From Patescibacteria group bacterium (GTDB lineage Bacteria; Patescibacteriota; Patescibacteriia; Buchananbacterales; UBA6539), in assembly GCA_028688055.1 (NCBI GenBank), contig JAQTYZ010000001.1, positions 242,910-306,909 on the forward strand: a DNA stretch of 64,000 nucleotides, read 5' to 3'. The position numbers were made by a program, and so were the translations under genes. Below the pieces are notes generated by a model. The model was not told the origin of the DNA, ran no database searches, and was given only the letters and a program-made list of their open reading frames with translations. Positions 1,000 through 43,304 of the stretch are shown here, piece after piece; position 1 is the stretch's first letter; the number at the start of each line of letters is the position of its first letter.

Positions 1000-3900
1000 T
1001 TATTTATTTATAATCGCCAGAAAATTATTGCTAGTTTTTATCCAATCAAATTTGTTGGCCCAGTCCAAGCATTGAACCATCATTGAATGGCGTAGTTTTT
1101 CGTTGATTATCAGCTCGACCATTTTATCGGCAAATTCTTGGCGGTTGCCATATTCAACTAAGTAACCGGTATGAGGATTACTAACCGAGTCACGTAAGCC
1201 CGGAACGTCAGACGCAATCACCGGCGTGGCGCAGGCGTTGGCTTCAATCGTCGTGATACCCCAGCCTTCCATAAAAGACGGATTAACTAAAACCCAAGCT
1301 TTTTGCAGGAGGCTGATTTTTTGTTGCTCATTAACTTTTCCGGTAAAAGAAACTTTGTCTGACAAATTTAAATTGGTCATCAATTTTTTAAGCTTGTAAT
1401 CTTCCTCACCGCTACCGGCAATGACTAATTTAGCATTCGGAATTTTTTCACTAACAATCTTAAACGCTTCCAGCAAAACATTAATTGATTTATATGCTTT
1501 TAACCGACCGAGATATAAAATTTCCGGGTAAACGCTTTTTTGGCCCGGTTTTAAATCATTAAGATGAACACCTGGATGGACAATCTCAATGCCTGCTTGG
1601 CCAAGACCCAATTCCATTATTTCTTCTTTGCTTGAATTAGAAACGGTGATAAACGGAATTTTTCGGTAAACCAAAGGCATTAAATCTTTTTCCAAAAAAC
1701 TGGCAATTATGGCTAACGGCTTAGCAAGCGATTGACGAAAAACTTCTTGATGAACGTGATGCATTAGGCAATATATTTTTTTTCTTGAATAGAGCGGTGT
1801 AAAAAACGGAATGCCATTTTGACAATCAATAATAACATCATAGTGGCCGCGGAAGCGCAAGCTGTAATAAATAAACGCCCAGAAATAAACAAAATAAAAT
1901 CCACCGCGGCGAATAATTTGTACTCCGTCAACCATTTCATTTCTTAGACACGTTGTATCGTTGCCGCAAAAAATGGTGACATAATGTCCTTGCTTGAGCC
2001 ATTGCTTGGCCATCTCTTGAATATAGGCCTCAGCCCCGCCAGCGAATTTATGTTTAGTATCACGCCAATTAAAAATAAGAATTTTTTTGGTATTGGCATT
2101 GTCAGCAATTGTCGGCAGATTGGCAAATACGCCGAGGAAGTCAATCAGGTTATTTTTAATTGAACCATAGAGGTATTCATAACGATTAAGCCAGGAAATT
2201 GATATTAAGCTCAGCGCGCTAGTTATAAAAATAACGCCGGTTATTTGATAAATATTTTGATGATAGATGATAATACCCAGCGACATCATTACGGAAAAAA
2301 TTAAAGACGCGCCGGCGAAGAAATAATTTTTTTTCGCCAAGTGGTATGAGACATAAACATTGCTAAGGGTAAACATGGCAATCGCCGGCAAATAGATATT
2401 TAAGTATGGCAGCACCACCAATGACTTCGCACCAAAAATAAACGGTATCACCAATCGGCCGAGGGTTAACAAACCAATTGAGCCAAAGCCGACTAAAACG
2501 GCGGTTGCAGCTAAAATAATTCTTAGTTTGTTTTCGGAGTTTTTATTTAAGCCGACGTCGCGACTAACCAGAGTTGTGATGAAAATACTCGGTAGGGCCC
2601 CAAAAAAGAAAACCATTTTTCCAATCAGTGCGAGTAGGGAATACTCGCCAGCAATTTGCGGTGATAAATAATGCTTAACCAAGATGATGTCAAAACTCAA
2701 AAAGACGATGGCGGAAATACCGGCGAACAGTGAAGCGGTATAGAATTTTACCGGGAATTCGATGATGGCGGCTGGTTCCGCTTTAAGGTTTAGTCTATTT
2801 TTGACTAAATAGACTGAGGCTGTCGCCGAAACAATGATTGAAAATGGAATTGAGATAAAGGCAAATTGCCCCAACCCAGCATAGACCAAAACAAACGCCG
2901 CTATCAATTTGCTTACGGACTCGGTCAAAATAATAAGCGCAACGGTTTTAAAATAGAGCGTTCCATTAAGGTAACCTTGGTTAGCAGCAGCAATGACACC
3001 GCCAATTAAAATTGGGGTAAATAACAACAGCGAAAGATAATTTGGCAGCTTAAAAAATATGGTTAAAGTTGGAATAGCTAAGAGCCAAGCCGCCGAGATG
3101 ACAACGGTGGCAATCGCGCCGCGCTTAATAATTTTTTTTAAAAAATTAACACTAGCTTGTTCGCCGACCGCCGTCGACAAGTAAGCGGTTCGGTAATTGA
3201 CTGTTGATGATAAAGCGCCAATAAATATTCCGGCAATAAACCACAGCGTGTTAATGAAAGTAATAAGTCCCAGATTTTCAAAAGTCAAAGCGCGCCCAAG
3301 AAAAGCGTTATATAACAAGTTTAAAACATTTGAAATCATCATCGCCGCCAAAAGTATTCCGCCGCTGGTTAAATTATCCAACTTAATTTTGTAAGGTATC
3401 TTTTCAGCGATGATATTTTGTACTAGCTTAGACGTTGAAGCAAAAAATGACAGCGGTGAACGCTTGCGTAAGTTGGGGCCATTATTATCCCAGCTCCAAT
3501 AATAATCCACCGTTGAGTATGGTAGTCGATCAGTAATCGACTGAAGATCTTGAGGGGTAGTTGATTCTGCCGGCGCTGACGGGATAATGATTTTAAAAAT
3601 TAATAAGCCAAATGATTTTGCCTTAGCTTTGGCAGCTTGGATAAATTCATAGGCCGAATGTTTTTTAATATGCAAACCGTTGTCATCCCAAGACCATTGG
3701 TAGGAACTTAGTCGGTACGAAATTGAACGATACAAATTAGTAACATTATTTTCAATTTTTTGAGTTGTCGCATTACCTTGAGGAATAAACTCGCCAAAAA
3801 ACTGCCAGGTTTTTTGAGCTGTTTGGATTAAGGGTGCCAAAAAAAATTCGCTTGGTTTTATTTTTAGGTGTAAACCGTGATGAGTTTTTTCCCAATAGTG

Positions 3901-6000
3901 AGGCTTAACAATTAATTGGTATAAGGCAAAGTATGAAGCAATACTAGTCATCAGCCAATAAAATGGCACCAAATAAATATATTTCATCAGTGACCAATGA
4001 TTTTTTCTAGCGCAACCAATCATGTAGTAATATAAAAACAAAAAGTTACCGAAGACTAAAGAAGTAGCCGCCATAAAGAAAATTAGCGGTGGAAATAATT
4101 GTTCAATCGTCGGACCAACAATCGAGTATAAAGTAAAATAGGCAATGGTGGCGAGCCATAAAAAAGGATTAATCATGGCAAAGGCAATTTTGCCGCCGAC
4201 CACCAGTTGAAAAATAATTGCATGAACCCCGTTGTAACGAAACAGTTTTAGCGGATGGCGCATATGAACCAAGTAGGTCTGCATATAACCTTTCATCCAA
4301 CGCGATCGCTGACGGAGCCAATTTTTGGCGTGACTATTGGCCTCTTCAAGTGTCGTGGAATCAATAATGGCGGTTTTATAATTTTTTCTAAACAGTCTAA
4401 TGCCTAAATCGCAATCTTCGGTGACATTAAACGGATCCCAACCTTCGAGTTCAACTAAGCTGGCCGTTTTAAAATGATTACTGGTCCCACCGAGGGGAAT
4501 GTAAGTATTTAATGATTGCAAGCCCGTTAAGGTAACATCAAACCATAATGAATATTCGGCGGTAAAAAAGCGCGTCAGTAAATTCTGATGTGGGTTGTGA
4601 TAATTTAATTTTGCCTGTAGACAAGCCACGTCGGGCGCGACTCGCTGGAAGCCAAGATACGCTTTTTTAAGTTGAAGTGGGTCGGGAATATCTTCGGCAT
4701 CATAAATAACTAAATATTCCCCGCGGGCAAAACCTAGGCCATAGTTGCAGGCTTTTGGTTTGGTCTTGGGAAAAGAGTCGGGTACCACTATGGCCCTGAC
4801 GTAGTCGGGCAAATCAAGTTTGGTCGCCATTTCGACGGTGACCTGATCGTCTTCTTCCAATAGCAGCAAAACATCTAAACGATTTTTTGGCCAATCAATT
4901 TTTTTGATAGCTGACAAAAAACTAGGCAACACCTCAGCTTCTTTATACAGCGGACATAAAATTGAATAAACCGGCAAGCTGTTATCATCAAGTAATTTAA
5001 CGTCAGAATTTTTAATTTTAATTTCGGGTGAGTTTTTTAAACTTTTTGTAACAAGATAAAAATTAAATAACACGTCAATAAAATAAACGGCACTCATCAG
5101 GGCGGTAATGATAATGGCGGTGGTCATCGGATTATTGTATAAACCAGCGCTAATCAACAAGATAACGAAAAAAATAAATATTTTTTGCCAGCGGGCAAAA
5201 GTTTGAATGGCGGAAGTTTCTTGCTTCAAAGTGGTGTGAGTAATAAATCTTTTTTTTCTGAAGGCAACCCCGGCGCCAATCATTTTTAATTCAGGAATAA
5301 TTTCAAGAATCTGATTCGGCGTCAACTTGAGTTTAAGCGCGTTAAGGCCGATCTCGTAAGCAACTTTTAAAATTTTAACTTTCGATTGTCCACTTCGGCG
5401 ATTCTCAAACATAATGTCCACTTCGGCGATGCGATAGCCGTAGTGCCTTGATTTTAAAAGAAATTCTAGGTCAAAAGTCCAGGGTGTCGGAGAAACTTTA
5501 ACTTCGTTGAGAATTTTAGTTTTAAATATTTTAAATCCGGATTGAACATCGCAACCCAAGCCGTGTAACCATTTGGCGAATAGTAAATTAAAAACACGGC
5601 TCGCGAGCCGTCGTTTAAAGGATAATTTACTTTCGTTTCGTTTGGCGACCACAATGTCAAAACCCTTTTCAATTTTTTTTAACATTTGTGGCAAGGCTTC
5701 GGGCGGATATTGCAAGTCGCCGTCGATAAAGCCAATCAGATTATATTTAGCCTTGGCAAAACCTTCAAGTAGCGATTGCGCCTTACCCCGTTTACCTTTT
5801 TTTTCATACAGTGAAATCGGAAAAAAATTAGCAAGCTCTCTAACTTTGTCTCTGGTACCATCAGTTGAATGGTCATCAATAAAAATAAGCTCATAGTCTG
5901 CCGTGCCAGTCAGAGCTTGGTCGATGCGATTGATTAACTCAGCAATATTTCCCGCTTCATTTAGAACAGGGATAATGACTGATAGTCTGTTACGATTCAT
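1000..6000 (-). CDS. 1666-aa multidomain glycan-assembly fusion protein: GT2 (DPM1-like) + GT2 processive synthase-like (QxxRW) + Wzx-like polysaccharide flippase membrane domain + GT4
   Basis: Uninterrupted 5-kb ORF in AT-rich DNA. N-terminal SVIIPVLNE...FIDDHSTDGT (GT2, dolichol-P-mannose synthase-like). Second GT2 with DAEDIP and RQRSRWMKG (QxxRW processive synthase motif). W-rich duplicated linker (SYQWSWDDNGLHIKKHS / DYYWSWDNNGPNLRKRS). About 12-TM Wzx/MOP-like region. C-terminal GT4 (EGWGITTIEANACATPVIASDVPG). Confidence 0.85.
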   Translation of the reverse strand: MNRNRLSVIIPVLNEAGNIAELINRIDQALTGTADYELIFIDDHSTDGTRDKVRELANFFPISLYEKKGKRGKAQSLLEGFAKAKYNLIGFIDGDLQYPPEALPQMLKKIEKGFDIVVAKRNESKLSFKRRLASRVFNLLFAKWLHGLGCDVQSGFKIFKTKILNEVKVSPTPWTFDLEFLLKSRHYGYRIAEVDIMFENRRSGQSKVKILKVAYEIGLNALKLKLTPNQILEIIPELKMIGAGVAFRKKRFITHTTLKQETSAIQTFARWQKIFIFFVILLISAGLYNNPMTTAIIITALMSAVYFIDVLFNFYLVTKSLKNSPEIKIKNSDVKLLDDNSLPVYSILCPLYKEAEVLPSFLSAIKKIDWPKNRLDVLLLLEEDDQVTVEMATKLDLPDYVRAIVVPDSFPKTKPKACNYGLGFARGEYLVIYDAEDIPDPLQLKKAYLGFQRVAPDVACLQAKLNYHNPHQNLLTRFFTAEYSLWFDVTLTGLQSLNTYIPLGGTSNHFKTASLVELEGWDPFNVTEDCDLGIRLFRKNYKTAIIDSTTLEEANSHAKNWLRQRSRWMKGYMQTYLVHMRHPLKLFRYNGVHAIIFQLVVGGKIAFAMINPFLWLATIAYFTLYSIVGPTIEQLFPPLIFFMAATSLVFGNFLFLYYYMIGCARKNHWSLMKYIYLVPFYWLMTSIASYFALYQLIVKPHYWEKTHHGLHLKIKPSEFFLAPLIQTAQKTWQFFGEFIPQGNATTQKIENNVTNLYRSISYRLSSYQWSWDDNGLHIKKHSAYEFIQAAKAKAKSFGLLIFKIIIPSAPAESTTPQDLQSITDRLPYSTVDYYWSWDNNGPNLRKRSPLSFFASTSKLVQNIIAEKIPYKIKLDNLTSGGILLAAMMISNVLNLLYNAFLGRALTFENLGLITFINTLWFIAGIFIGALSSTVNYRTAYLSTAVGEQASVNFLKKIIKRGAIATVVISAAWLLAIPTLTIFFKLPNYLSLLLFTPILIGGVIAAANQGYLNGTLYFKTVALIILTESVSKLIAAFVLVYAGLGQFAFISIPFSIIVSATASVYLVKNRLNLKAEPAAIIEFPVKFYTASLFAGISAIVFLSFDIILVKHYLSPQIAGEYSLLALIGKMVFFFGALPSIFITTLVSRDVGLNKNSENKLRIILAATAVLVGFGSIGLLTLGRLVIPFIFGAKSLVVLPYLNIYLPAIAMFTLSNVYVSYHLAKKNYFFAGASLIFSVMMSLGIIIYHQNIYQITGVIFITSALSLISISWLNRYEYLYGSIKNNLIDFLGVFANLPTIADNANTKKILIFNWRDTKHKFAGGAEAYIQEMAKQWLKQGHYVTIFCGNDTTCLRNEMVDGVQIIRRGGFYFVYFWAFIYYSLRFRGHYDVIIDCQNGIPFFTPLYSRKKIYCLMHHVHQEVFRQSLAKPLAIIASFLEKDLMPLVYRKIPFITVSNSSKEEIMELGLGQAGIEIVHPGVHLNDLKPGQKSVYPEILYLGRLKAYKSINVLLEAFKIVSEKIPNAKLVIAGSGEEDYKLKKLMTNLNLSDKVSFTGKVNEQQKISLLQKAWVLVNPSFMEGWGITTIEANACATPVIASDVPGLRDSVSNPHTGYLVEYGNRQEFADKMVELIINEKLRHSMMVQCLDWANKFDWIKTSNNFLAIINK

Positions 6001-6389
6001 TATTATTTAGCAAAAAAACGTATGAATAAATCTACTGATTTTAAGTAAGTAAGCCTATAATTTTTACATTAATATTGCAGTTTTGTCAAGTATTTCAATA
6101 TAACAATTTGTATGACGAAGTATGATTTATTATTAGAATAAATTTTGCTAATTTTAGCAAATTTGCAAAAAAGTGGTTTTTGTGACATTGCTGTTGAAAA
6201 TTTTCTCTCGCTATGCTAAGGTTTCAGGACGGCTAAAATTAGCCAGATCAATGCAAGGACCGCCTCTTGCGGCTCCTTTAACAATAAACTCAACCGGAAA
6301 ATATATAGGAGGGAAGTGGAAGTAAAACGCCTTTTGTCGAGTACGAAACGATGAACCGGGCGAATGCCCAAAACTAGGAGTGTCCAAAG

Positions 6390-7781
6390 ATGAGAATCGT
6401 TCGTAGTGCCACCTTGCTTGCCTTGGTTATCGGCCTGGCAGGTTGCCCGCCGGTCCACCCGATATTCATTTGGGGTGCCGGCCTCTTCGCGACCGACGGC
6501 GGTTGCGAAAACAACTTTTCCGTTTTCGTTACGAACAACAATGCGGCCGAGGCGAGTTTCCAGCTTTGGCAGCAAAACAGCCAAGGTCAGTGGCTCCCGA
6601 CTCAGGACCAGCATAAGGTCCAGTTCGGTCCGGTCGAAAACGTGACACTGTATCGTGTCGACGCGACGTACCAGGGCCAGGACGTGTTCTACTGGAATGG
6701 TGCGTACATTTATTCGCCGTATGGCTATCCTTACCATTACAAGTCAAACGACAAGGACGCCAATGGCGAGAAAGTGTTGCCGGGCTATTACCCCTGGAAT
6801 TACGTGCCTTGGGGCTGGGTGCAGTCGCACGGCGTGTACGGCCATACGACCGAGACAGTTGAAGTCTCGCACATGGATATCATCCATAGTGAAGGTTTCG
6901 ACCTCTACTCGGTTTTTCCCAATCTATCGTCCAGCCCGTACCGAGTCAAAATCACTGGCGTCGATACGGACGGCAAGGCTTTTGTGGCCGCGACCACCGA
7001 TGTTTATTCGGTGGTCGACGATTGCACCGCCAATGGTGGCCCCTGTGGAACACCGAGTCTGCGCATCGACCGTACGCCGCTGTTTGGCGATAACAACGGT
7101 GTCGTCAGCGGCACTGTCTGTCTCGAAAACCCAGTCGGTTGGACCGTGGGCGTTTATGCTCACGTTACCAACGTGTGGCCGGATCCGTACAATCTCATCG
7201 GCGTCGTGCCAATCAACGCGAGTGGTAATTGGACGCAGCAAGGCGTCCAGACTGCGGACGACAAGTTCGCGATCGAATTCTTCGCGTCACTGGCGCCAAC
7301 TGGTACCGTTTACCCCTCGACTTCGCAGGGCATTCCCCAAATTGCGGGGCAGGTTGATTCCGATGTGAAACAACGGACACCGTTTGTGGTGTTTGTCGGC
7401 AACCCCTCTGTCTCGGGTGGCGCTGAGTGCCAGACGAATTATTTCCCAGCGCTATTCGGCGCGATTGCGTACGTCCAACAGGCGAACGGTAACGTTCACC
7501 AGCAGCCGATGTACAGTCCGCCGTCCGCGAGCACGTTGGTATCATTGATACCGGATGCGGGTGGGGCTTTCTGCACCTTCCACATCGCCCTTAACCAGGT
7601 CGCCGCCGGGTCAAGCTACGACCCCGGACAAGCGGCCACGGTCAAGGTGCAGGTCATCCCTCAGGGATACAATTACGTCAAAACGGAGACGGGCATAACG
7701 GTTGACAACCTCAACCTCAACCTGACTCCAGAGGGAGTGGCCGGACGAGGAGCCGATGTCGCCGCCACCTTAGCCCCGTAG
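6390..7781 (+). CDS. Secreted lipoprotein of unknown function, encoded in a high-GC island (atypical codon usage)
   Basis: AGGAG RBS 9 nt upstream. Signal peptide with lipobox LALVIGLAG-C. Trp/Tyr/Gly-rich mature part. GC and GC3 far above flanks. The overlapping ORFs in other frames (6216-6737-, 6655-7368+ etc.) are high-GC artefacts. Confidence 0.7.
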   Translation: MRIVRSATLLALVIGLAGCPPVHPIFIWGAGLFATDGGCENNFSVFVTNNNAAEASFQLWQQNSQGQWLPTQDQHKVQFGPVENVTLYRVDATYQGQDVFYWNGAYIYSPYGYPYHYKSNDKDANGEKVLPGYYPWNYVPWGWVQSHGVYGHTTETVEVSHMDIIHSEGFDLYSVFPNLSSSPYRVKITGVDTDGKAFVAATTDVYSVVDDCTANGGPCGTPSLRIDRTPLFGDNNGVVSGTVCLENPVGWTVGVYAHVTNVWPDPYNLIGVVPINASGNWTQQGVQTADDKFAIEFFASLAPTGTVYPSTSQGIPQIAGQVDSDVKQRTPFVVFVGNPSVSGGAECQTNYFPALFGAIAYVQQANGNVHQQPMYSPPSASTLVSLIPDAGGAFCTFHIALNQVAAGSSYDPGQAATVKVQVIPQGYNYVKTETGITVDNLNLNLTPEGVAGRGADVAATLAP

Positions 7782-7906
7782 CTTTTCGGGAAGAGTAACA
7801 CCGCTCGTCGGGAGCTTTGACTGTGGTACGCTGCAGTTAGGGTTCTCGGCGAGTCTTTTTTTACTTGATTTTAATCTAAAAAAAGCATATAATATTATAG
7901 TAATAT

Positions 7907-9601
7907 TTGGTTATGAAAAAACTTTTTAAATCTAAAATTCTGTGGTCGGTGGTCCTAATTCTAATTATCGGCGGCGTTTTTGCTTATCGATACTTTAATA
8001 AGCCTAAAACGGTTGAATATGTCACCGAGGATGTTAGGCGCGGTAATCTTACCCAAACCATTGATGCAACCGGTAAAGTTAAATCAGCGACCGAAATTGA
8101 CTTAAACTTTAAAAATGCCGGTCGACTGGCAACGGTAAATGTTAAAGTTGGCGATCAAATTAAGGAAGGCCAAATTTTAGCTCAGATTAAAGCCACTGAT
8201 TTGAAAATTAATGTTAATAAAGCGCAGGCTAACTTAAATGAAGCCCTGGCCAATTTAGCCAAGGTCGAAACCGGCGCCACTAAACAAGACATTGCTGTTT
8301 ATCAGGCTGCCGTTGAAAAGGCAAGCAGTGATTTAGACAGTGCCCAATCCGATTTATCGAATATAACCGAAACCTATACTCAGGCTGTGGTTAACCAAAG
8401 GCAAAATATTTTGGTTGATATTAATTCGACTTTGACTAAGGCAAATATTTCTTTACAAACTCTTTATGACACGATTTATTATAAAGGTGATGCCAATAAT
8501 TTAGTTACTTCAAATCAATCGTTATATCAACAAACGGTTAACGGATATTCATTGTCAATTAACAAACTTGATGATGCCGAACTTAGTTATAATATTGCCA
8601 AACTTAACCCAACTGATGATAAAATTAGTGATGCGATTGCAAAAAGTTTAACGGCGCTCGGTCAGGTGTCACAAACCTTAAATGATGGGGGAGCCTTGTT
8701 GGATTATGTAATTATTACTTCATCACTAACTCAGGCCAACTTAGATAGTTTAAAGTTGAATATAAATTCCGAGCGGGTAACAACTAACACGAGTCTTAAT
8801 ACGATCGAGACCGGTAAGCAAGCGTTAAACGATGCGAGTATCACTTTGCAAACAAAAGTGGACTCGGCTAAAAATGCGGTTACCGCGGCTGAAAAAAATT
8901 TAGCTAAGGCTAATGCCGATTTGTCGCTCAAATCAGCACCGGCCAGACCGGAGGATTTGACACTTTATCAGGCCCAGGTTGCGCGCGCGCACGGCGACTT
9001 GCAATTAGCTTTGGACCAATATAGCGACACAATTATTAAAGCCCCGATTGACGGAGTGATTACCGAAGTTAATTTCAGTGTTGGTGAACAAACCAATTTG
9101 AGTCAGCCTGCCATTGTGATGTTGGCCAATGAGGCTTTTGAAATTGAAGTAAATGTTCCGGAGTCTGATATTGTTAAAATAACCAGGGGTGATAATGCTG
9201 AAATCACTTTAGACGCATTTACCGATGCCGATATTTTTGACGGCGTCATCACCACCATTGATCCGGCTCAAACCGAAATTCAAGATGTTATTTATTATAA
9301 AGTTACGGTTGGTTTTCGTCCGGAGCAACCAGCTAAGGTTAAGAATTTAGTGGAAAGAATTAAGCCGGGGATGACTGCTAATTTAACGGTGAAAACCGGT
9401 GAGATCAATGACATTTTGATTATTCCAGCGCGAGCCGTCAAGGAGGAAAATGGCCAAAAATATGTTGAAATACTTGCTAACGGCACACCACAGCGAATAA
9501 ATATTACCATCGGACTTCGTGGCGACGATGGTTTAGTTGAAGTTACGTCTGGTTTAAGTGAAGGTCAAAAAGTCATTACCTTTGTTCGCAATCAGGGTTA
9601 G
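7907..9601 (+). CDS. HlyD-family periplasmic adaptor / membrane fusion protein with long coiled coil
   Basis: N-terminal TM, extended alpha-helical coiled-coil region, C-terminal beta-barrel/lipoyl-like segment (IKAPIDGVITEVNFSVGEQ), typical of efflux/secretion MFPs. Confidence 0.6.
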   Translation: MVMKKLFKSKILWSVVLILIIGGVFAYRYFNKPKTVEYVTEDVRRGNLTQTIDATGKVKSATEIDLNFKNAGRLATVNVKVGDQIKEGQILAQIKATDLKINVNKAQANLNEALANLAKVETGATKQDIAVYQAAVEKASSDLDSAQSDLSNITETYTQAVVNQRQNILVDINSTLTKANISLQTLYDTIYYKGDANNLVTSNQSLYQQTVNGYSLSINKLDDAELSYNIAKLNPTDDKISDAIAKSLTALGQVSQTLNDGGALLDYVIITSSLTQANLDSLKLNINSERVTTNTSLNTIETGKQALNDASITLQTKVDSAKNAVTAAEKNLAKANADLSLKSAPARPEDLTLYQAQVARAHGDLQLALDQYSDTIIKAPIDGVITEVNFSVGEQTNLSQPAIVMLANEAFEIEVNVPESDIVKITRGDNAEITLDAFTDADIFDGVITTIDPAQTEIQDVIYYKVTVGFRPEQPAKVKNLVERIKPGMTANLTVKTGEINDILIIPARAVKEENGQKYVEILANGTPQRINITIGLRGDDGLVEVTSGLSEGQKVITFVRNQG

Positions 9602-17074: not shown

Positions 17075-20000
17075 ATGGTTAATAAAAAGTTGGTTAAACC
17101 GGCTTGGAATTTCTTTAGCTGGTTTATGATTGTGATGACGGTGGTTCCGTTTTCAGCAATCAGTATATCCCCAAGGGCGGCGCAAGCTAGCACTGGGGTT
17201 GTTTTATTCCAAGATGATTTTGAGTCTGGCTTAGCGAGTTGGACTTCAGACTCAGGCACCGTTGGTACCGACGACTCATCAAGTTATCGACGAAGTTGTC
17301 CTGGTGATTTTAGTAGTTGCGGCGTTGATGCCCAAAATGACTATTTATACTTTCAAAACGATGCTGAAATAATCAAAACGATTAATACAACCGGGTATAC
17401 TGACGCAACTTTTAGCTACTGGCGCCGGGGTGTTGGTTTATCCTCAAATGACCGATTTGAAACGGCCTGGAGGATTGGAACTTCAGGTAGCTGGACACCA
17501 TTAGAATCAGACAAAGATTCTACTTGGACTAAAAAAACGTTTGTGCTTTCGGGCTCAGCTGACCAGACGGCAATTCAGATAAGACTGCGTTTAACAAATG
17601 CCGAATCTTCAGATAAGGCTCTTTTTGATGATATTCAGACAGTGGCTGACGACTTAACCCAGCCGGGAATTCAAATTACAACAATAAATAACGGCCAACC
17701 GGATGATTTCTCTTGTCCAAATAACCCGCCGTCAAATCCGATAACACTCAGTGGTTCTGGCGCCGGTAGTACGCCGCCAGGTCTTATTGAACAGTATAAG
17801 GTTCAGGTTGACTGGGGCGATGGTAATGTTGAAAATGATTTAGGAGTTTTTACTCCAAGCAGTGGTCACGGTAATTTTACTTTTACTTTTACCGCCTCAG
17901 CTCATAGTTATACCAGTAGTGGCACCTATACCGTTAAAGCTCGTCTTTATCATCAAGCCGCACCAGGAAATGATGGTGATGCCGACGCTGTTACCACATT
18001 TGAAACGTGTGCCACGGTTATTTCCTGCGGCGACGGTATAAAAAATGGCAGTGAAGAATGTGATGGTACTGATGGCATTGGGACTCACCAAAGCTGTTCT
18101 CAAGACTGTACTTTAGTTAGCGAGCCATATTGCGGCGATAGTATTGTTAATGGCACTGAACAGTGCGATGCTGGTCCAAATGGATCTGATACCTGCTCAA
18201 CCGATTGTACTACTATTGATCAACAGCCAGTTGCCGTTTGCGGCAATGGCGCTATTGAAGACGGAGAACAGTGTGATGACAGCAATACTACTAATGGCGA
18301 CGGCTGTAGCAATGTCTGCCAGCTGGAAGTTTTACAGTGTGAAGAAATTACCAGCCAAGAAAATGGTTGGTTTGGTCAATATTACAATTATTTTGCGACT
18401 GACTTTGGCATGAATGTTCAGAGCATTTACTGGCCTGATAGTAACCACGGTGATCCATTGAGCGTTAACCAAGCTTTTGATGCCGATTGGTATCAATCTA
18501 ATCATTTCCGTTTCTCAAGGGTTGATAGTTCTATTGATTTTGGTGATAACTTTTTCCCGTTTGACATTGCCCCGGAATCGGCCACTCCCGATGATATCGA
18601 AAATGGTCACGATTTCCACTTTGGGGTTCACTGGAGCGGTATTGTTCATGTTGATAACCCAGGAGAATATATCTACACTGTTCGATCAGATGATGATTCA
18701 TGGATCTATGTTGACGGTGTCCTGATTAATAACGATTTACAGGGTATTCACGCCCCAACTGCCACCAGCGGATCAATGCTTTTGACTGGCGACAATGTTG
18801 TTGATATTTATTTTGCGGAACGACATCGATCAGAATCGGCATTTTCCTTCAATTTTGACAGCGAAGGTGTCAGTATCAAACCATATTCTAAAGATTGTCC
18901 GGAGTGCGGTAATTATGTAACCGACGGGCAGGAGGAATGTGACGCTGGTCCAAACGGTTCAGCTACTTGCTCCGTTGAATGTACAATTTCGATTTGTGGT
19001 AACGGTCGTGTTGAATATGGTGAACAGTGTGATGATAATAATACTGTTAATGGCGACGGCTGTAGCAATGTCTGCCAGCTGGAAGTTTTACAGTGTGAGG
19101 ACATACCAGGCGATAATAATGGTTGGTTCGGTCAATACTATAATTACTTTGCAACTTTATTTGGTATGAATGTTCAGGACATTTACTGGCCTGATAGTAA
19201 TCACGGTGATCCATTGAGCGTTAACCAAGCTTTTGATGCCGATTGGTACACCGCACCATATTTCAGATTTTCGAGAATTGACAGCTCAATTAATTTTGGT
19301 GATAACTTTTTCCCATTTGACATTGCTCCGGAATCGGCCGATTCTGACGACATCGAAAATGGCCACGATTTCCACTTTGGGGTTCACTGGCAGGCTACTG
19401 CTCATGTCAATACGCCTGGAGAATATAGCTATACCATGCGTTCAGACGATGATTCATGGGTATACCTAAATGGTGCTTTAGTTAATGACGACTTAAATGG
19501 TATCCACGCCCCGTCCGCTACCAGTGGAACAATGTATCTCGATGGTTCTGATAACATTGATATTTTCTTTGCGGAACGACATCGTTCACAATCAGCATTT
19601 TCATTTAACTTCGATGGCGAGGATGTGACCTTAACCCCGGTTAACAATCAGTGTGTCGAGAATCCGGTTTGTGGTAATGGTGCTGTTGAACAAGGTGAAC
19701 AATGTGATGACGGAAATACCACTTCCGGCGACGGTTGCAGTGATTTATGTCAACTTGAAAGTATAACGACAAATATTTGTGGCTTTAAATGGAATGATTC
19801 AGATGGCAATCAGTCGTTTGATGAAGGTGAGTCAAAATTAGCCAATTGGACCATTGATTTACTTAAGTTTGGTATTTGTCAGGCAGACGATGAATGGGCT
19901 GATGATATTATCAGCTATACGCCTGGAACCAGAAAGAACGGAACACCAGTGACAGTTGAGCGATCAGATGCTAGCAATGCCTTGGGCGTAGCAGAAAATA

Positions 20001-22057
20001 ATTACACTCTTAATTTTGTGTCGTTAGGATTTGGCGGTGAACTGGTCCTTCATTTTAACAATTTAATTGTTAATGGTGCCGGCGACGACCTGCAATTAGT
20101 TGAATCATCATATAAGCTAGTTGGCTCAGTCTATAGTAGCCCTGACTGTAGTAGCTACCCGGAGCAGGCTCAGGTTTTTGCTTCACAGGACGGCTCAAAT
20201 TGGGTTGAATTGGGTACTAAATGTTTAGATAGTACCTTTGATCTCGCTTCATTACCGTGGGCTAGTTATGTTAAAATTGTTGATGCCTCTAATAAAAATT
20301 CAACATATTTCCCAGCCGATGCTGATGGTTTTGATGTTGACGGCATCAAGGCGCTAAATTGTTCATCAGGTTATGAGACTATTTCAACCCAGGTAACTGA
20401 TGAAGATGGTAACTATTGTTTCAGCGATATTAACCCTGGCGATTATCGCGTCCAGGAAGAAATGCAAAACGGCTGGGTTAATTCGACTCCATTTTATCAA
20501 GATGTAACCGCCGGCCGAGGCGATAGTCTGGAAGTTAACTTTGGCAATAAGACAAGTCAGCCAGTCCAACCAGGTAGTATTTGTGGGTATAAATTCGAAG
20601 ATAATAATCAGAATGGCTTATTTGATGGCAGCGAATTCGGCATTCCAGGCTGGCGAATATTTGCCACCTCAACTGACTTATTTACTGACACAATAACTAA
20701 CGATGATGGTTATTACTGCTTTAATGGTTTAAGTAATGGCATCTTTGATGTTTTTGAGGAAATTGTGTCAGGTTGGGCAACAACAACCGCTGCCACTAGC
20801 ACCATCAACCTTATTGATGTTGGTGTTAATAATATCAATTTTGGAAATTTCCGGTGTGTGGATAATGATGATGATGGATATTATATCGGTGGTGGTAATT
20901 GCGGACCGATTGACTGCAATGATGATAATTCAAACATTAACCCAGGTGCCGCTGAGGTATGTGACGAACTTGATAATAATTGCAACGCCCAGATTGATGA
21001 AGGTGGCGTCTGCGAAGAGCCGACAACCGAATGTACTTCGGGCGCTGTCCAATCATGTGGTTCAAGTGAAGTTGGCGAATGTCAATTAGGAACAAAAACT
21101 TGTGACGAAACCGGACACTGGGGATCATGCGTTGGTTCTGTTGAGCCAACCTCGGAAATCTGCGACGAAAAAGATAATAATTGTAACGGCCAAACTGATG
21201 AAGACAATATCTGCCAAGGTCCAAGCGTAACTACCACCGGAACCGGTGGTGGCGGCGGTGGTGGAATTTCCACCCTGTATATCCATAATGAAGCGCTTCA
21301 GGATGGAACCACAAATTCAATAACCATTACCTGGTTTACCAACATACCGGCCGATAGTCGAATTGTTTATGACACTGTTTCTCACCCCATACTTGGTTTT
21401 GCACCAAACTATGATTATCAGTGGTCGACAAATACGTATGATGATTCATCACTTGTTACCTTCCATACGGTTATTATCACCGGTCTCAATTCAGGCACAA
21501 CCTATTACTTCCGGCCTTTGTCAGCTGATTCTTCAAATCACGCCAACGGTATTGAATTAAGTTATTTCACCTCTAACGGCAATGACGAAAATCAGCCAGA
21601 AGGCAATCCTCCAACAAACACTAACAGTAATACTAATGCCAACACCAATACTAACCAGGGGATAGTTCTTGGAGTATCAACCGAAAATAACAGCGCCGGA
21701 AATGGCACGGTTGCTGGTGAAGAATATGTGGAGCCAACTTCATCATCAACGCCAACTACGACGCCTGAAGTTATTGAAACAGGCAAAACTGAAGAAACTC
21801 CCCAGAATTGCTCACTATACATATTAATTCTGCTACTACTTAACATTATCACGGCGGCCTTTGCTGGCTATCGTTCAAGGGATAACAAGAATAATGTTAT
21901 TAAAAATCTCTGGTGGTTAGTTGGAATACTAGCTGTTTTGCCAGTCATTATTTGGTACCCAGCCTGTTGGCTAACTTGGTGGCTTGTTATTACTCTTATT
22001 GCCTCAATTGTGGCTGTTGCAATTGGAAACGATGGTCAACAAAATCAAAACAGTTAA
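17075..22057 (+). CDS. Giant (1660 aa) cell-surface adhesin-like protein: signal peptide, Myxococcus-type Cys-rich repeats, 2 tandem PA14 domains, Cna-B-like domains, MopE-like metal-binding motifs, Fn3-like domain, NT-rich linker, C-terminal TM anchor
   Basis: Signal peptide ...SPRAAQA. Repeats CGNGxxExGEQCDDxNTxxGDGCSxxCQLE. PA14-like modules ending IYFAERHRSESAFSFNFD (two copies). Cna-B-like GDYRVQEEMQNGW. CxDxDxDG / CDExDNNCNGQxDE motifs. C-terminal hydrophobic helices after a PTNTNSNTNANTNTNQ linker. Confidence 0.85.
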   Translation: MVNKKLVKPAWNFFSWFMIVMTVVPFSAISISPRAAQASTGVVLFQDDFESGLASWTSDSGTVGTDDSSSYRRSCPGDFSSCGVDAQNDYLYFQNDAEIIKTINTTGYTDATFSYWRRGVGLSSNDRFETAWRIGTSGSWTPLESDKDSTWTKKTFVLSGSADQTAIQIRLRLTNAESSDKALFDDIQTVADDLTQPGIQITTINNGQPDDFSCPNNPPSNPITLSGSGAGSTPPGLIEQYKVQVDWGDGNVENDLGVFTPSSGHGNFTFTFTASAHSYTSSGTYTVKARLYHQAAPGNDGDADAVTTFETCATVISCGDGIKNGSEECDGTDGIGTHQSCSQDCTLVSEPYCGDSIVNGTEQCDAGPNGSDTCSTDCTTIDQQPVAVCGNGAIEDGEQCDDSNTTNGDGCSNVCQLEVLQCEEITSQENGWFGQYYNYFATDFGMNVQSIYWPDSNHGDPLSVNQAFDADWYQSNHFRFSRVDSSIDFGDNFFPFDIAPESATPDDIENGHDFHFGVHWSGIVHVDNPGEYIYTVRSDDDSWIYVDGVLINNDLQGIHAPTATSGSMLLTGDNVVDIYFAERHRSESAFSFNFDSEGVSIKPYSKDCPECGNYVTDGQEECDAGPNGSATCSVECTISICGNGRVEYGEQCDDNNTVNGDGCSNVCQLEVLQCEDIPGDNNGWFGQYYNYFATLFGMNVQDIYWPDSNHGDPLSVNQAFDADWYTAPYFRFSRIDSSINFGDNFFPFDIAPESADSDDIENGHDFHFGVHWQATAHVNTPGEYSYTMRSDDDSWVYLNGALVNDDLNGIHAPSATSGTMYLDGSDNIDIFFAERHRSQSAFSFNFDGEDVTLTPVNNQCVENPVCGNGAVEQGEQCDDGNTTSGDGCSDLCQLESITTNICGFKWNDSDGNQSFDEGESKLANWTIDLLKFGICQADDEWADDIISYTPGTRKNGTPVTVERSDASNALGVAENNYTLNFVSLGFGGELVLHFNNLIVNGAGDDLQLVESSYKLVGSVYSSPDCSSYPEQAQVFASQDGSNWVELGTKCLDSTFDLASLPWASYVKIVDASNKNSTYFPADADGFDVDGIKALNCSSGYETISTQVTDEDGNYCFSDINPGDYRVQEEMQNGWVNSTPFYQDVTAGRGDSLEVNFGNKTSQPVQPGSICGYKFEDNNQNGLFDGSEFGIPGWRIFATSTDLFTDTITNDDGYYCFNGLSNGIFDVFEEIVSGWATTTAATSTINLIDVGVNNINFGNFRCVDNDDDGYYIGGGNCGPIDCNDDNSNINPGAAEVCDELDNNCNAQIDEGGVCEEPTTECTSGAVQSCGSSEVGECQLGTKTCDETGHWGSCVGSVEPTSEICDEKDNNCNGQTDEDNICQGPSVTTTGTGGGGGGGISTLYIHNEALQDGTTNSITITWFTNIPADSRIVYDTVSHPILGFAPNYDYQWSTNTYDDSSLVTFHTVIITGLNSGTTYYFRPLSADSSNHANGIELSYFTSNGNDENQPEGNPPTNTNSNTNANTNTNQGIVLGVSTENNSAGNGTVAGEEYVEPTSSSTPTTTPEVIETGKTEETPQNCSLYILILLLLNIITAAFAGYRSRDNKNNVIKNLWWLVGILAVLPVIIWYPACWLTWWLVITLIASIVAVAIGNDGQQNQNS
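18238..19680 (+). repeat. Tandem direct duplication (2 x ~757 bp, ~85-90% nt identity) of the Cys-rich-repeat + PA14 module inside the adhesin gene
   Basis: Runs of exact identity such as AATGGCGACGGCTGTAGCAATGTCTGCCAGCTGGAAGTTTTACAGTGTGA at 18293 and 19049, and TTTACTGGCCTGATAGTAA-CACGGTGATCCATTGAGCGTTAACCAAGCTTTTGATGCCGATTGGTA. Confidence 0.85.
21610..21660 (+). repeat. Low-complexity Asn/Thr codon repeat (PTNTNSNTNANTNTNQ linker) inside the adhesin gene
   Basis: (AAC/ACT/AAT) microsatellite-like run CCAACAAACACTAACAGTAATACTAATGCCAACACCAATACTAACCAG. Confidence 0.6.
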
Positions 22058-22152: not shown

Positions 22153-23364
22153 TTGCTGAACATTATGTTTAATAAAAAAAATCAGCAGAATAAAGATACA
22201 ATCAGTTTTTGGGCTAAATTTAGCCTAATTATGATTGTCCTACAAGCAATTGGTGGGGTATTAATATTTTTAATCAATCCGAAGCGCTGGCTGCGTTTTT
22301 TTAAAAAACAAAAAAAGGAGATAAATGATCTTACGGATGGTAAAGAAGGGACAAAGGATTTTCTTCTAAATTCTAGTGTATTGCTAAAGGATTTGTTCAT
22401 TCCGCATTTAGGCAATGGTCATAAACCTAAAATTTTGAGGCCAAAGAGCCTACTGACATTTGCTGTTTCGGCAATAATTATTAAAGCGGCGGTAACTGGT
22501 TTTCTGTTTTTTACTTATCCGACGCCAGCCGAATTATCAGCCATAATGACCAGCAATATGATCGCGCTGATTAATGACGCGAGAAATGATGCCGGTGCTG
22601 AGCCGTTACGAGAAAATTTGATGTTAGATGAATACGCAAAACAAAAGGGGACAGACATGATCAGTCGAGGTTATTTTGCTCATGATACGCCGGATGGAAA
22701 AAGACCATGGGAGTGGATTGATCGAACGGATTATGATTATGTTTATGCTGGTGAAAATCTGGCGATGGACTTTATCTCGGCCGAGGTTGTTCAGGACGCT
22801 TTTATGAAAAGCCCTGGCCATCGACGTAATATCTTAAATCCTAAGTATAAAGATGTTGGAATTGCGGTTTTGAATGGTAAATTAGGTGGTCATGAAACCA
22901 CTTTATTAGTCGAGTTTTTTGGTACGGAACGAAAAGATTTGTCTTCGCTGGTGGCAGTTAATAAAGCTCCATCAGCTAAGACAACCGTTACTCAACCCAA
23001 TCCTAGTACCCCCGTCCAACCAATGGTAATTTCCAATACCAACGCCAGTAATCCAAATGTCAATAATAATTTAGTACCCGAAAATGTTCAGTCGGCAAAC
23101 ACGGAGGCTCTTATTGTCGTTGCACCCAACCAATCTTCAAATTCGGACTTAATTAATTTTGTTATTGAATACTCAAATATTTTTTTCATCGCCTTTCTTA
23201 TCTTTATGTTGATATCGCTGATACTAAATATTGTTATTAAATTTAGAATTCAGCATCCGGCGTTGATTTTACAAAGCGTGGTGGTTATCGCCCTAATGGC
23301 GGCCATGGTTTTGGTCAAGTTCCATTTTGCCGAAACAATCTCACCCCATTTGCTCATTTTATAG
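22153..23364 (+). CDS. CAP/SCP (PR-1-like) domain protein with N- and C-terminal TM segments
   Basis: CAP-domain pattern: LINDARNDAGAEPL..., YFAHDTPDG, GENLAMDF, MKSPGHRRNILNPKYKDVGIAV. Confidence 0.7.
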   Translation: MLNIMFNKKNQQNKDTISFWAKFSLIMIVLQAIGGVLIFLINPKRWLRFFKKQKKEINDLTDGKEGTKDFLLNSSVLLKDLFIPHLGNGHKPKILRPKSLLTFAVSAIIIKAAVTGFLFFTYPTPAELSAIMTSNMIALINDARNDAGAEPLRENLMLDEYAKQKGTDMISRGYFAHDTPDGKRPWEWIDRTDYDYVYAGENLAMDFISAEVVQDAFMKSPGHRRNILNPKYKDVGIAVLNGKLGGHETTLLVEFFGTERKDLSSLVAVNKAPSAKTTVTQPNPSTPVQPMVISNTNASNPNVNNNLVPENVQSANTEALIVVAPNQSSNSDLINFVIEYSNIFFIAFLIFMLISLILNIVIKFRIQHPALILQSVVVIALMAAMVLVKFHFAETISPHLLIL

Positions 23365-31836: not shown

Positions 31837-31838
31837 TA

Positions 31839-42587: not shown

Positions 42588-42616
42588 TTGACAAATTTAT
42601 AATTTTATGCTATTAT
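42588..42616 (+). promoter_or_regulatory. Consensus sigma70-type promoter driving the high-GC island 2 gene
   Basis: TTGACA - 17 nt - TATTAT, about 115 nt upstream of the ATG. Confidence 0.55.
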
Positions 42617-42733
42617 ACAAATGTTGACAATGGATTAGTCTGATGGCGAGGAAGGTTAGATCTTCCAGTCCTGGTTTGTCTAGGATCGTAAGCTGTCAGG
42701 CCCAACCGTGCCTACGGGCATCGGAGAAGAAGA

Positions 42734-43285: not shown

Positions 43286-43304
43286 AGTCCCCGCGAAGTC
43301 TTAT

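What the first reader, a model, noticed from the sequence alone, without database searches (positions are those of the whole stretch)
6200..7860. High-GC island 1: secreted lipoprotein gene with foreign codon usage
About 1.65 kb at roughly 58% GC encoding a 463-aa protein with a classical lipobox (LAG-C), rich in W/Y/G/N, with no recognisable domain. Every reading frame is open across it, which is typical of high-GC DNA and absent elsewhere in the window. Flanked by AT-rich intergenic DNA on both sides. Together with island 2 this gives two unrelated secreted proteins of apparently foreign origin inserted between housekeeping genes, possibly host-interaction factors.
Basis: partly seen in the sequence, partly recalled or inferred. 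Interest (0 to 1): 0.7.

Follow-up and report, generated by a model that had tools for sequence, protein, structure and literature searches.

The report
Persistently GC-rich native surface lipoprotein gene
A single surface lipoprotein gene in a GC-poor ultra-small bacterium looks like recently imported DNA, but relatives carry it at the same place with the same GC-rich make-up, so something actively keeps this gene family GC-rich.

Summary
Bases 6200-7860 are 55.6% GC against 38.8 +/- 2.1% for other windows of that size. The 463-aa ORF (6390-7781) has GC3 0.68 against 0.36 +/- 0.03 (z = 10.7) and a lipobox, LAG|C.

"Recently inserted foreign DNA" is not supported. The source is a Patescibacteria MAG. 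Three independently assembled relatives carry the orthologue at the same locus, behind the same promoter. All are GC islands, with GC3 0.59-0.70. Synonymous sites are saturated even between the closest pair, and the gene tree matches the tree of the flanking gene.

Four more distant, roughly 1100-aa relatives sit at a second conserved locus. They are GC islands too, whether the host's fourfold-site GC is 0.17 or 0.58. I saw no mobility genes, att-like repeats, DGR, silent cassettes or GC skew.

The protein models as three FN3/Ig-like beta-sandwich domains on a lipid anchor. It evolves about 1.3-2.6 times faster than its neighbours.

Best reading: a native, vertically inherited surface lipoprotein whose GC-rich composition is a maintained equilibrium. 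The force is unknown. I favour selection on the mRNA or on synonymous sites. The nearest precedent is the GC-rich vls locus of Borrelia, which works differently.

The parts
6194..6222 (+). Sigma-70-type promoter: -35 TTGAAA (6194-6199), 17-nt spacer with TG, -10 TAAGGT (6217-6222)
   Evidence: The motif TTGAAA-N17-TAA[GT]GT is present at the same aligned position in all four orthologous loci. Analogous TTGACA-N17-TAAGGT/TAAAGT/TAAAAT promoters precede the long-form relatives. Function is inferred, not shown.
6231..6244 (+). Short stem-loop (GGCTAAAATTAGCC) about 8 nt after the -10 box, at the predicted 5' end of the transcript
   Evidence: A hairpin at this position is predicted in all eight bacterial family loci although the sequence differs. 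Its role as an mRNA-stabilising 5' hairpin is an inference.
6229..6389 (+). Predicted 5' leader of about 160 nt, with the RBS AGGAG at 6376-6380
   Evidence: GC is 0.46, against 0.228 upstream of the promoter. The leaders are 94-167 nt in the orthologues. No Rfam family matched.
6390..7781 (+). CDS of the 463-aa lipoprotein (NCBI: hypothetical protein PHW95_01370, Patescibacteria group bacterium)
6390..6446 (+). Signal peptide with lipobox L-A-G-C; Cys19 is the predicted lipidated residue
   Evidence: The n-region MRIVR, the hydrophobic core and LAG|C can be read from the sequence. Cys19 is the invariant column across 11 aligned homologues, and G-C-P is invariant in 8.
6462..7004 (+). N-terminal family-specific beta-sandwich domain (about aa 25-205) with a low-confidence Y/W/G/P-rich insert (aa 104-158)
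   Evidence: It is shared only with P0002, P0003, P0005, P0006, P0007, P0009, P0011 and P0013. The AF2 model is.
7026..7382 (+). Middle beta-sandwich domain of about 110 aa (aa 213-331). It recurs, often in tandem, in about 40 representative proteins and is not in Pfam
7392..7778 (+). C-terminal beta-sandwich domain (aa 335-463), shared with the orthologues P0002 and P0003 and with the dockerin-bearing protein P0008. It is replaced by unrelated sequence in L004
7805..7862 (+). Intrinsic terminator: a long GC-rich hairpin followed by a T-run. This is the 3' edge of the GC-rich block
   Evidence: Equivalent terminators follow the orthologues.
1000..6000 (-). Divergently transcribed 1666-aa fused glycosyltransferase (GT2-GT2-membrane-GT4). 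It is a conserved native-GC neighbour and was used as the vertical-descent marker
7907..9601 (+). Downstream HlyD/YknX-like membrane-fusion protein, a conserved native-GC neighbour

Best explanation
The island is a native, vertically inherited, single-gene transcription unit of a Patescibacteria lineage. It encodes a lipid-anchored cell-surface protein built from three FN3/Ig-like beta-sandwich domains. This is most likely an abundant envelope or adhesion component, and it evolves faster than its neighbours.

Its GC-rich composition is not a residue of recent import. It is a stationary, gene-specific equilibrium that the whole family keeps (fourfold-site GC about 0.6-0.73) whatever the host genome's composition.

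Shown here:
- synteny of the orthologues;
- a conserved promoter;
- a gene tree congruent with the flanking-gene tree;
- saturated synonymous sites with unchanged GC;
- the same pattern at a second conserved locus.

Inferred: the maintaining force. I think it is most likely selection on the nucleic acid itself, meaning synonymous sites or the mRNA. A heavily base-paired, A/U-poor message with a 5' hairpin, long leader, strong RBS and strong terminator would be long-lived and well expressed.

I put about 0.75 on 'native gene with a maintained composition' and about 0.35 on the mRNA-level mechanism.
For: Same locus in relatives:
- L001, L002 and L004 come from three different sequencing runs. 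Each places the orthologue divergent from the giant GT. In L001 and L004 it also lies upstream of the HlyD-like gene; the L002 contig ends just after the gene.
- Protein identity, island against GT: 62/82% for L001, 45/58% for L002, 31/55% for L004.
- All are GC islands. Gene GC is 0.54-0.58 and GC3 0.59-0.70, against flanks of 0.31-0.50.
- The promoter TTGAAA-N17-TAA[GT]GT, the 5' hairpin and the terminator are conserved.

Vertical descent and turnover:
- The four-point topology ((W,L1),(L2,L4)) is the same for the island and the GT.
- pS is 0.72-0.85 for every pair, so synonymous sites are saturated.
- Island dN is 1.3-2.6 times the GT dN.
- At fourfold sites under conserved residues, third-base identity is 0.33 against 0.26-0.29 expected from composition. 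This holds in both flanks and island, while island GC4 stays 0.69/0.71.

Second orthologous group:
- L005, L007, L008 and L015 carry the long form of about 1100 aa.
- It is always followed by a TSP3/CAP gene.
- Flanking proteins are 44-67% identical and the family gene 39-40%.
- Gene GC3 is 0.58-0.72, against hosts from 0.16-0.21 (L007) to about 0.45.
- L015 was tested after I had predicted it would be an island.

Uniform composition and sharp edges:
- Whole-gene base composition is nearly identical in all eight genes: A .20-.24, C .25-.29, G .28-.30, T .21-.25.
- Fourfold composition is similarly uniform.
- Flanking genes show no GC3 gradient toward the island.

mRNA folding: island mRNA folds at about -0.41 kcal/mol per nt, against -0.24 for the neighbour. 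The codon-permutation z-score is -4.6 to -5.2 in four orthologues, against -1.4 to -2.7 in controls.

Lipoprotein context: a Lit lipoprotein transacylase gene lies in the window.
Against: - The sample is small: nine family loci, all metagenomic contigs, and only four per orthologous group.
- There are no expression, half-life or population data, so the force is inferred.
- Excess mRNA structure beyond what composition gives is not robust. The dinucleotide-shuffle z-score is -6.1 for the window gene, only -2.8 for L001, and -2.1 for a control.
- The 5' leader (GC 0.39-0.46) is not clearly richer than other intergenic regions (0.27-0.48). So the block is essentially the CDS plus the terminator, and codon-level explanations remain open.
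- Other presumably well-expressed genes are not GC-rich: L25 in the window and DnaK in L008. A general 'stable mRNA' benefit does not explain why only this family has the trait.
- The family has moved between genomes at least once. L011 is an archaeal contig.
- Island 2, an unrelated ORFan, has the same codon usage. A shared GC-rich donor pool would also explain that.
Confidence: 0.7

Rival explanations
1. Recent horizontal acquisition: a foreign GC-rich gene dropped between housekeeping genes and not yet ameliorated.
For: The composition and codon usage are strongly atypical. The dinucleotide signature differs from the host: rho(GpC) is 0.90 against 1.39. Island 2 has the same codon usage. 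The family has a narrow, patchy distribution: only 3 full-length hits among 5.8 billion proteins.
Against: Orthologues sit at the same locus with a conserved promoter in relatives whose flanking proteins are only 55-82% identical. Synonymous sites are saturated and the trees are congruent. There is no integrase, tRNA, att-like repeat or IS. The promoter is AT-rich and native-like.
Confidence: 0.04
2. Ancient acquisition followed by repeated allelic replacement from a GC-rich gene pool, such as GC-rich Patescibacteria or their phages or plasmids. Each resident copy would then be young although the locus is old.
For: Composition and codon usage are uniform in all hosts. The family reached an archaeal contig. 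The C-terminal domain was swapped in L004, and the domains recur in other architectures. The gene diverges faster than its flanks. ORFan island 2 has the same codon dialect.
Against: The gene tree matches the flank tree in the four-taxon test. Both long-form pairs compared (L005-L007, L008-L015) are collinear over most of their length and more diverged than their flanks. The promoter and leader co-diverge with the flanks. No GC-rich-host homologue or mobile carrier was found by the profile search of 1.8 billion representatives, PHROGs, or the genome and metagenome scans.
Confidence: 0.12
3. A local non-adaptive fixation or mutation bias. One form is GC-biased gene conversion at a recombination hot spot, because surface-antigen alleles are exchanged often. 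The other is a transcription-coupled repair bias.
For: The gene is a fast-evolving surface protein flanked by conserved genes that could anchor recombination. gBGC has been argued for bacteria (PMC4450053). The shift affects G- and C-ending codons alike. The G/C ratio at fourfold sites is higher than in the flanks.
Against: The step is sharp, with no GC3 gradient into the flanking genes. The promoter and downstream spacer are very AT-rich. As I recall, the recombination-associated GC3 differences reported for bacteria (PMC4450053) are small, whereas the shift here is +0.2 to +0.45. There is no strand skew.
Confidence: 0.1
4. A vls-like antigenic-variation expression site, where high GC serves segmental gene conversion from silent cassettes.
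For: It is a surface lipoprotein gene far richer in GC than an AT-rich genome. The same holds for Borrelia vls: 49% against 28.6%, which the authors judge to be under strong selection (PMC11499132).
Against: GC skew is about 0, against 0.52 in vls. G3+ and C3+ runs are fewer than expected. No partial copy of the gene exists in the 64-kb window, by tblastn and blastn, and no repeats were found. None of the eight related loci shows cassette arrays.
Confidence: 0.03
5. Assembly or binning chimera.
For: This is a MAG-derived contig with an abrupt compositional step.
Against: The same junctions appear in four independent assemblies from different runs. Island 2's junctions are reproduced in an independent Logan assembly. 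The promoter and terminator are continuous with the flanks.
Confidence: 0.01

Closest known systems
Borrelia burgdorferi s.l. vls locus (VlsE surface lipoprotein and silent cassettes)
   Same: It is a surface lipoprotein gene kept far more GC-rich than an AT-rich genome across species. The cassettes are 45-51.7% GC against about 28.6%, which the authors interpret as strong selection on composition (PMC11499132).
   Different: vls has a strong coding-strand GC skew (about 0.52), clustered G-runs and contiguous silent cassettes that feed gene conversion. Here skew is about 0, G and C runs are depleted, and no cassette or partial copy exists in the window or the related loci. The proteins are unrelated: alpha-helical VlsE against an all-beta model here.
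Classical horizontally acquired genomic islands detected by atypical GC or codon usage
   Same: The compositional and codon-usage anomaly is the same, it is a single cargo gene for a secreted protein, and the flanks are AT-rich.
   Different: There is no mobility machinery or att sites. The gene is present and syntenic in all sampled relatives, its tree is congruent with the flanks, and there is no amelioration despite saturated synonymous sites.
Large G+C-rich (lgr) genes of Protochlamydia amoebophila
   Same: It is a family of genes encoding large repeat proteins that are richer in GC than an AT-rich host genome (41-43% against about 35%) (PMC2216083).
   Different: The lgr excess is small, and their codon usage is reported as not distinct from the host's. 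The authors read them as of foreign origin with recent duplications. Here the excess is +17-27 GC points, the codon usage is distinct, and persistence across orthologues is documented.
Multi-domain bacterial surface proteins with Ig/FN3-like modules (Pfam PF16403 Bact_surface_Ig-like, HYR, CARDB)
   Same: The long-form relatives P0006, P0007 and P0009 combine this family's N-terminal and middle domains with 3-4 PF16403 modules. The window protein models as three beta-sandwiches with FN3/Ig/MG and CBM structural neighbours.
   Different: The window protein matches no Pfam Ig/FN3 family by sequence. Its three domains are undescribed families. The anchoring is a lipobox rather than sortase, SLH or T9SS.
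S-layer and other major envelope protein genes with long structured 5' leaders that stabilise the mRNA (my own knowledge: for example ompA, aprE and lactobacillar slpA leaders)
   Same: It is a monocistronic unit with a strong promoter, a hairpin at the predicted 5' end, a 90-240-nt leader, a strong RBS and a strong terminator in all eight bacterial loci. It has glycosyltransferase neighbours.
   Different: Abundance, lattice formation and mRNA half-life are untested. No known S-layer domain was found. A GC-enriched coding region is not, to my knowledge, a described feature of those genes.

Membership tests
Recently acquired genomic island (HGT) | Composition and codon usage deviate from the host genome | tested here: met
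   GC3 is 0.683 against 0.357 +/- 0.030 (z = 10.7). The codon-usage distance to the background is 1.81, against a native maximum of 1.23.
Recently acquired genomic island (HGT) | Mobility signatures: integrase or transposase, tRNA or att direct repeats at the borders | tested here: not met
   No tRNA lies within 6 kb. Only chance-level 13-15-nt repeats were found. Pfam on 43 window ORFs found no integrase or transposase.
Recently acquired genomic island (HGT) | Absent from the same locus in related genomes (patchy presence) | tested here: not met
   It is present at the same locus in L001, L002 and L004.
Recently acquired genomic island (HGT) | Gene phylogeny conflicts with that of the flanking native genes | tested here: not met
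   The four-point topology is the same for the island and the GT. With only four taxa, this test is weak.
Recently acquired genomic island (HGT) | The anomaly decays toward the host composition with divergence (amelioration) | tested here: not met
   pS is at least 0.72 in all pairs, yet GC4 is 0.59-0.73 in every orthologue. In L007 it is 0.60 against a host value of 0.17.
Bacterial lipoprotein (signal peptidase II substrate) | N-terminal signal peptide ending in a lipobox [LVI][ASTVI][GAS]C | tested here: met
   The sequence is MRIVR-SATLLALVIG-LAG|C. The Cys is invariant in 11 homologues, and G-C-P is invariant in 8.
Bacterial lipoprotein (signal peptidase II substrate) | Lgt and LspA present in the genome; lipid modification of the Cys | not testable with these tools
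   Only 64 kb of the genome was seen. A Lit lipoprotein transacylase homologue (PF07314, E = 1.3e-22) at 56199-56864 shows that lipoprotein-maturation machinery exists.
Borrelia vls-type antigenic variation locus | GC far above the genome average | tested here: met
   vls values are from PMC11499132.
Borrelia vls-type antigenic variation locus | Strong coding-strand GC skew with clustered G-runs | tested here: not met
   Skew is -0.011. There are 15 G3+ runs against 22.4 +/- 4.1 expected.
Borrelia vls-type antigenic variation locus | Array of promoter-less silent cassettes homologous to the expressed gene | tested here: not met
   tblastn and blastn found no second copy or fragment in the window, and no repeats were found. 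The rest of the genome was not seen.
FN3/Ig-like beta-sandwich surface proteins | Tandem beta-sandwich fold | tested here: met
FN3/Ig-like beta-sandwich surface proteins | Sequence membership of a described Ig/FN3/Big Pfam family | tested here: not met
   There is no Pfam hit above threshold, only DUF6385 at E = 0.13. The best PDB profile match has E = 0.077.
Diversity-generating retroelement target | Nearby reverse transcriptase and a TR/VR repeat pair | tested here: not met
   There is no RT; the RVT_3 hit at 31371-31793 is an RNase H. No repeat involves the gene.
S-layer / major envelope protein gene | Very high expression and self-assembly into a lattice | not testable with these tools
   No expression or structural data are available. 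The only support is circumstantial gene architecture.

The most novel reading that the evidence does not exclude
Patescibacteria, and perhaps DPANN archaea, hold a class of secreted or surface-protein genes whose nucleic acid is kept GC-rich by selection. It would include this lipoprotein family, and possibly island 2 and the other 'GCP' lipoprotein in L007. The result is a gene-specific 'GC armour': a heavily structured, A/U-poor, long-lived or RNase-resistant mRNA for a key envelope or attachment protein in otherwise AT-rich, ultra-small genomes. If so, atypical GC in these genomes marks a functional class rather than foreign DNA, and compositional HGT detection misreads such genes systematically.
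Probability: 0.3. Interest if true: 0.8.

Novelty: new variant of a known kind. Interest (0 to 1): 0.62.

Why it matters
Atypical GC and codon usage are routinely read as recent horizontal transfer. Here the same signal persists through saturating synonymous turnover. It holds in two separate orthologous groups and in hosts whose fourfold-site GC ranges from 0.17 to 0.58. So it must reflect a gene-specific equilibrium.

That makes a concrete question testable in uncultivated ultra-small bacteria: what force can hold one gene 20-45 GC3 points above its genome?

It also flags an undescribed, fast-evolving surface lipoprotein family as a candidate major envelope or attachment protein of Patescibacteria, whose cell-surface biology is largely unknown.

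Practically, it warns against calling such genes foreign, or contamination, when curating MAGs.

Tried and rejected
- **Pure translational selection.** Rejected because G-ending and C-ending codons rise equally in two-fold and four-fold families. Ribosomal protein L25 and DnaK are not GC-rich.
- **Amino-acid composition alone.** It explains part of GC1 and GC2, but not GC4 of 0.70 against 0.45.
- **A general property of surface proteins.** Rejected. The 1660-aa PA14/SdrD protein in the window has GC3 0.35, and the low-GC lipoprotein in L010 has GC3 0.25.
- **DGR.** No RT and no TR/VR pair.
- **vls-like system.** No skew and no cassettes.
- **Phage origin.** No PHROG hit.
- **Structured RNA or riboswitch in the island.** No Rfam match.
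- **Overlapping antisense gene.** The alternative-frame ORFs are what high GC produces by itself, and all those frames contain stops.
- **Searches that gave little.**
  - Genome contigs and metagenome-contig scans returned only loci already in hand. Two attempts failed for lack of a conserved stretch.
  - The third word-indexed protein search, with a family profile, found nothing new.
  - AF2 with three sequences was useless, at pLDDT 40.
  - afdb50 was not available.
  - Cluster look-ups gave little taxonomy.
  - Literature searches found no description of this phenomenon in CPR.
Full report
**Observation**

The window averages 39.2% GC. Between about 6250 and 7850 the GC content jumps to 0.52-0.60. 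The stated span 6200-7860 is 0.556 GC. All other 1661-nt windows have mean 0.388, sd 0.021 and maximum 0.453. A two-change-point likelihood places the block at 6355-7854.

The block holds one long ORF, 6390-7781 (+), of 463 aa, beginning MRIVRSATLLALVIGLAG|C. Its GC1/2/3 values are 0.582/0.448/0.683. The 41 other ORFs of the window give 0.446/0.332/0.357, so GC3 has z = 10.7.

The shift affects all codon classes. Fourfold-site GC is 0.70 against 0.45. C/(C+T) in two-fold codons is 0.64 against 0.27. G/(A+G) is 0.66 against 0.30.

The flanks are AT-rich: 0.228 upstream of the promoter and 0.148 after the terminator.

The statement that every frame is open is wrong. The five other frames carry 7-20 stops each.

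No Pfam, NCBIfam or PHROGs family and no solved-structure sequence matches the protein.

**Anatomy**

The gene is a monocistronic unit with these parts:
- A sigma-70-like promoter, TTGAAA-17 nt-TAAGGT (6194-6222).
- A short hairpin (6231-6244) about 8 nt downstream of the -10 box.
- A leader of about 160 nt ending in AGGAG (6376-6380).
- A long GC-rich terminator hairpin with a T-run (7805-7862).

There is no tRNA, integrase, transposase or att-like repeat at the borders. No Rfam element lies in the block.

The neighbours have native composition. One is a divergent 1666-aa fused glycosyltransferase (1000-6000, -). The others are a HlyD/YknX-like gene and then FtsW/RodA.

**Source and relatives**

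The protein is identical to a hypothetical protein of an NCBI MAG labelled 'Patescibacteria group bacterium' (PHW95_01370). Among 5.8 billion proteins it has only two other full-length relatives.

Both relatives, and a third found by a profile search of 1.8 billion representatives, lie on contigs from different sequencing runs. Their position is the same: divergent from the giant GT. Where the contig reaches far enough (L001 and L004), they are also upstream of the HlyD-like gene.

| Locus | Island protein identity | GT identity |
|---|---|---|
| L001 | 62% | 82% |
| L002 | 45% | 58% |
| L004 | 31% | 55% |

Every one of them is a GC island. The gene is 0.54-0.58 GC with GC3 0.59-0.70, and the flanks have GC3 0.31-0.50. 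The promoter motif, the 5' hairpin and a terminator are present in all four.

This rules out chimerism. It also shows that the gene predates the divergence of these lineages.

**Is the composition inherited passively?**

No, for three reasons.
- Nei-Gojobori pS is 0.72-0.85 for every pair, including the closest, so synonymous sites are saturated.
- At fourfold sites under conserved residues, third-base identity between the window and L001 is 0.33. Composition alone predicts 0.26-0.29. This holds in the flanks and in the island alike, while island GC4 remains 0.69/0.71.
- Synonymous sites have therefore turned over almost completely without moving toward the host value. A rough relaxation estimate from these numbers (my inference) implies that more than 80% of a neutral anomaly would be erased since the youngest split, and about 98% since the oldest.

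The distance-based four-point test gives the same topology, ((W,L1),(L2,L4)), for the island and the GT. Island dN is 1.3-2.6 times the GT dN. This is vertical descent with faster protein evolution.

**A second, independent group**

The profile search also found proteins of about 1045-1156 aa: P0006, P0007, P0009 and P0013. They carry the same lipobox, the same N-terminal domain, several copies of the middle domain and 3-4 PF16403 Ig-like modules. P0007 is annotated from Candidatus Buchananbacteria, and other relatives from Patescibacteria.

These four genes are always followed by a TSP3/CAP-domain gene. Flanking proteins are 44-67% identical and the family gene 39-40%.

All four are GC islands.

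| Locus | Gene GC3 | Neighbour GC3 |
|---|---|---|
| L005 | 0.64 | 0.38-0.50 |
| L007 | 0.60 | 0.16-0.21 |
| L008 | 0.72 | about 0.45 |
| L015 | 0.58 | 0.30-0.34 |

L015 was examined after I had predicted it would be an island.

Whole-gene base composition is nearly identical in all eight bacterial genes: A .20-.24, C .25-.29, G .28-.30, T .21-.25. Host fourfold GC ranges from 0.17 to 0.58.

Proteins that share only the middle domain show little or no contrast (P0010 and P0012).

One member, P0011, has the N-domain fused to PASTA. It lies on an archaeal contig with proteasome and beta-CASP neighbours, inside a 3.5-kb GC-elevated block. So transfer does occur in this family.

**What the protein is**

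With a 30-row alignment, AlphaFold2 gives pLDDT 74.9 and an all-beta model. It has three beta-sandwich domains (about aa 25-205, 213-331 and 335-463) after the signal peptide.

Three things point to a lipid-anchored extracellular binding or structural protein:
- The lipobox Cys is invariant.
- A Lit lipoprotein transacylase gene lies in the window.
- Glycosyltransferase neighbours are present in the short-form group and in two long-form loci, L005 and L007.

The ligand is unknown.

**What keeps it GC-rich?**

I tested several ideas.
- Simple tRNA adaptation is unlikely, because G- and C-ending codons rise together. L25 and DnaK are not GC-rich.
- It is not a general property of surface proteins.
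- There is no GC skew, no G-runs and no silent cassettes, so it is not vls-like. There is no DGR.
- Flanking genes show no GC3 gradient toward the island. This argues against conversion tracts anchored in the flanks.
- The mRNA would be far more base-paired than its neighbours: about -0.41 against -0.24 kcal/mol per nt. Structure exceeds synonymous-codon permutations in all four orthologues (z -4.6 to -5.2, controls -1.4 to -2.7).
- Against dinucleotide shuffles the excess is inconsistent: -6.1, -2.8, and -2.1 for the control.
- The GC-rich block is essentially the CDS plus the terminator.

I therefore rank selection on synonymous sites or the mRNA first, for stability and expression of a major surface protein. 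This fits the promoter, 5' hairpin, long leader, RBS and terminator found in all eight loci. I treat it as an inference.

Repeated replacement from a GC-rich pool and biased gene conversion remain possible.

Island 2 (42734-43285) encodes an unrelated ORFan secreted protein whose only database hit is itself. Its codon usage is indistinguishable from island 1. It has the same promoter, GC-rich gene and terminator layout. That fits either a shared regime or a shared donor.

**Comparison with what is known**

The nearest precedent is the vls locus of Lyme Borrelia. Its cassettes are about 49% GC in a 28.6% genome, which the authors judge to be under strong selection (PMC11499132). That system has strong skew, G-runs and cassettes, all absent here.

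The lgr genes of Protochlamydia are a much milder case, and their authors read them as foreign (PMC2216083).

Literature searches found no report of this family or of this phenomenon in CPR bacteria.

**Verdict**

- The inference of recent foreign origin is not supported.
- The gene is a conserved, fast-evolving Patescibacteria surface lipoprotein with an actively maintained GC-rich composition.
- The cause of that composition is unresolved.

**Limits**

There are only nine family loci, all metagenomic. There are no expression or population data. The phylogenetic tests use four taxa. The structural inference rests on a model of moderate confidence.

Noticed in passing
window 42590-43352 (ORF 42734-43285, +): Island 2 is a 183-aa secreted ORFan whose only database hit is itself. 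GC3 is 0.717. Its codon usage is statistically indistinguishable from island 1. It has the same layout: an AT-rich TTGACA-17-TATTAT promoter, a GC-rich gene and a terminator hairpin. An independent Logan assembly reproduces its context.
   Followed up: partly
window 17075-22057 (+) and 22153-23364 (+): A 1660-aa secreted protein (PA14, SdrD_B, DUF4215, MopE; internal 756-nt tandem repeats at 18228-19760) has native GC3 of 0.35. It sits directly upstream of a CAP-domain gene. That CAP gene is 35% identical to the TSP3/CAP gene that follows the GC-rich long-form relatives in L005 (and has TSP3/CAP counterparts in L007, L008 and L015). So the same slot holds a non-homologous occupant.
   Followed up: partly
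L011 5558-9105: This is an archaeal (DPANN-like) contig with proteasome and beta-CASP/KH neighbours. It carries a 3.5-kb GC-elevated block: four small genes plus the family N-domain fused to two PASTA domains. This is likely a transfer from bacteria to archaea.
   Followed up: partly
L007 4827-5393 (+): An unrelated 188-aa lipoprotein with a 'TGCP' lipobox is also GC-elevated, with GC3 0.45 against a 0.17-0.21 background. This hints that the phenomenon is not limited to one family.
   Followed up: no
window 56199-56864 (+): A homologue of Lit, the lipoprotein intramolecular transacylase (PF07314), which makes lyso-form lipoproteins. It is the most AT-rich gene in the window, at GC 0.284.
   Followed up: no
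window 1000-6000 (-): A 1666-aa single polypeptide fuses two GT2 domains, a multi-span membrane region and a GT4 domain. It is conserved at full length (82% identity) in L001, and in L001, L002 and L004 it is transcribed divergently from the lipoprotein gene.
   Followed up: partly
window 31837-32204 (-): Bacterial class A RNase P RNA (224.9 bits), in the 500-nt spacer after an RNase H gene.
   Followed up: no
window 53209-53643 (+): A 122-aa GIY-YIG nuclease ORF ends 10 nt inside tRNA-Lys(UUU) (53568-53643).
   Followed up: no
L004 4700-4997 and 5063-5812: In L004 the C-terminal third of the lipoprotein is replaced by unrelated sequence. A short-chain dehydrogenase gene is inserted between it and the HlyD-like gene. 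So the locus is conserved but not static.
   Followed up: no
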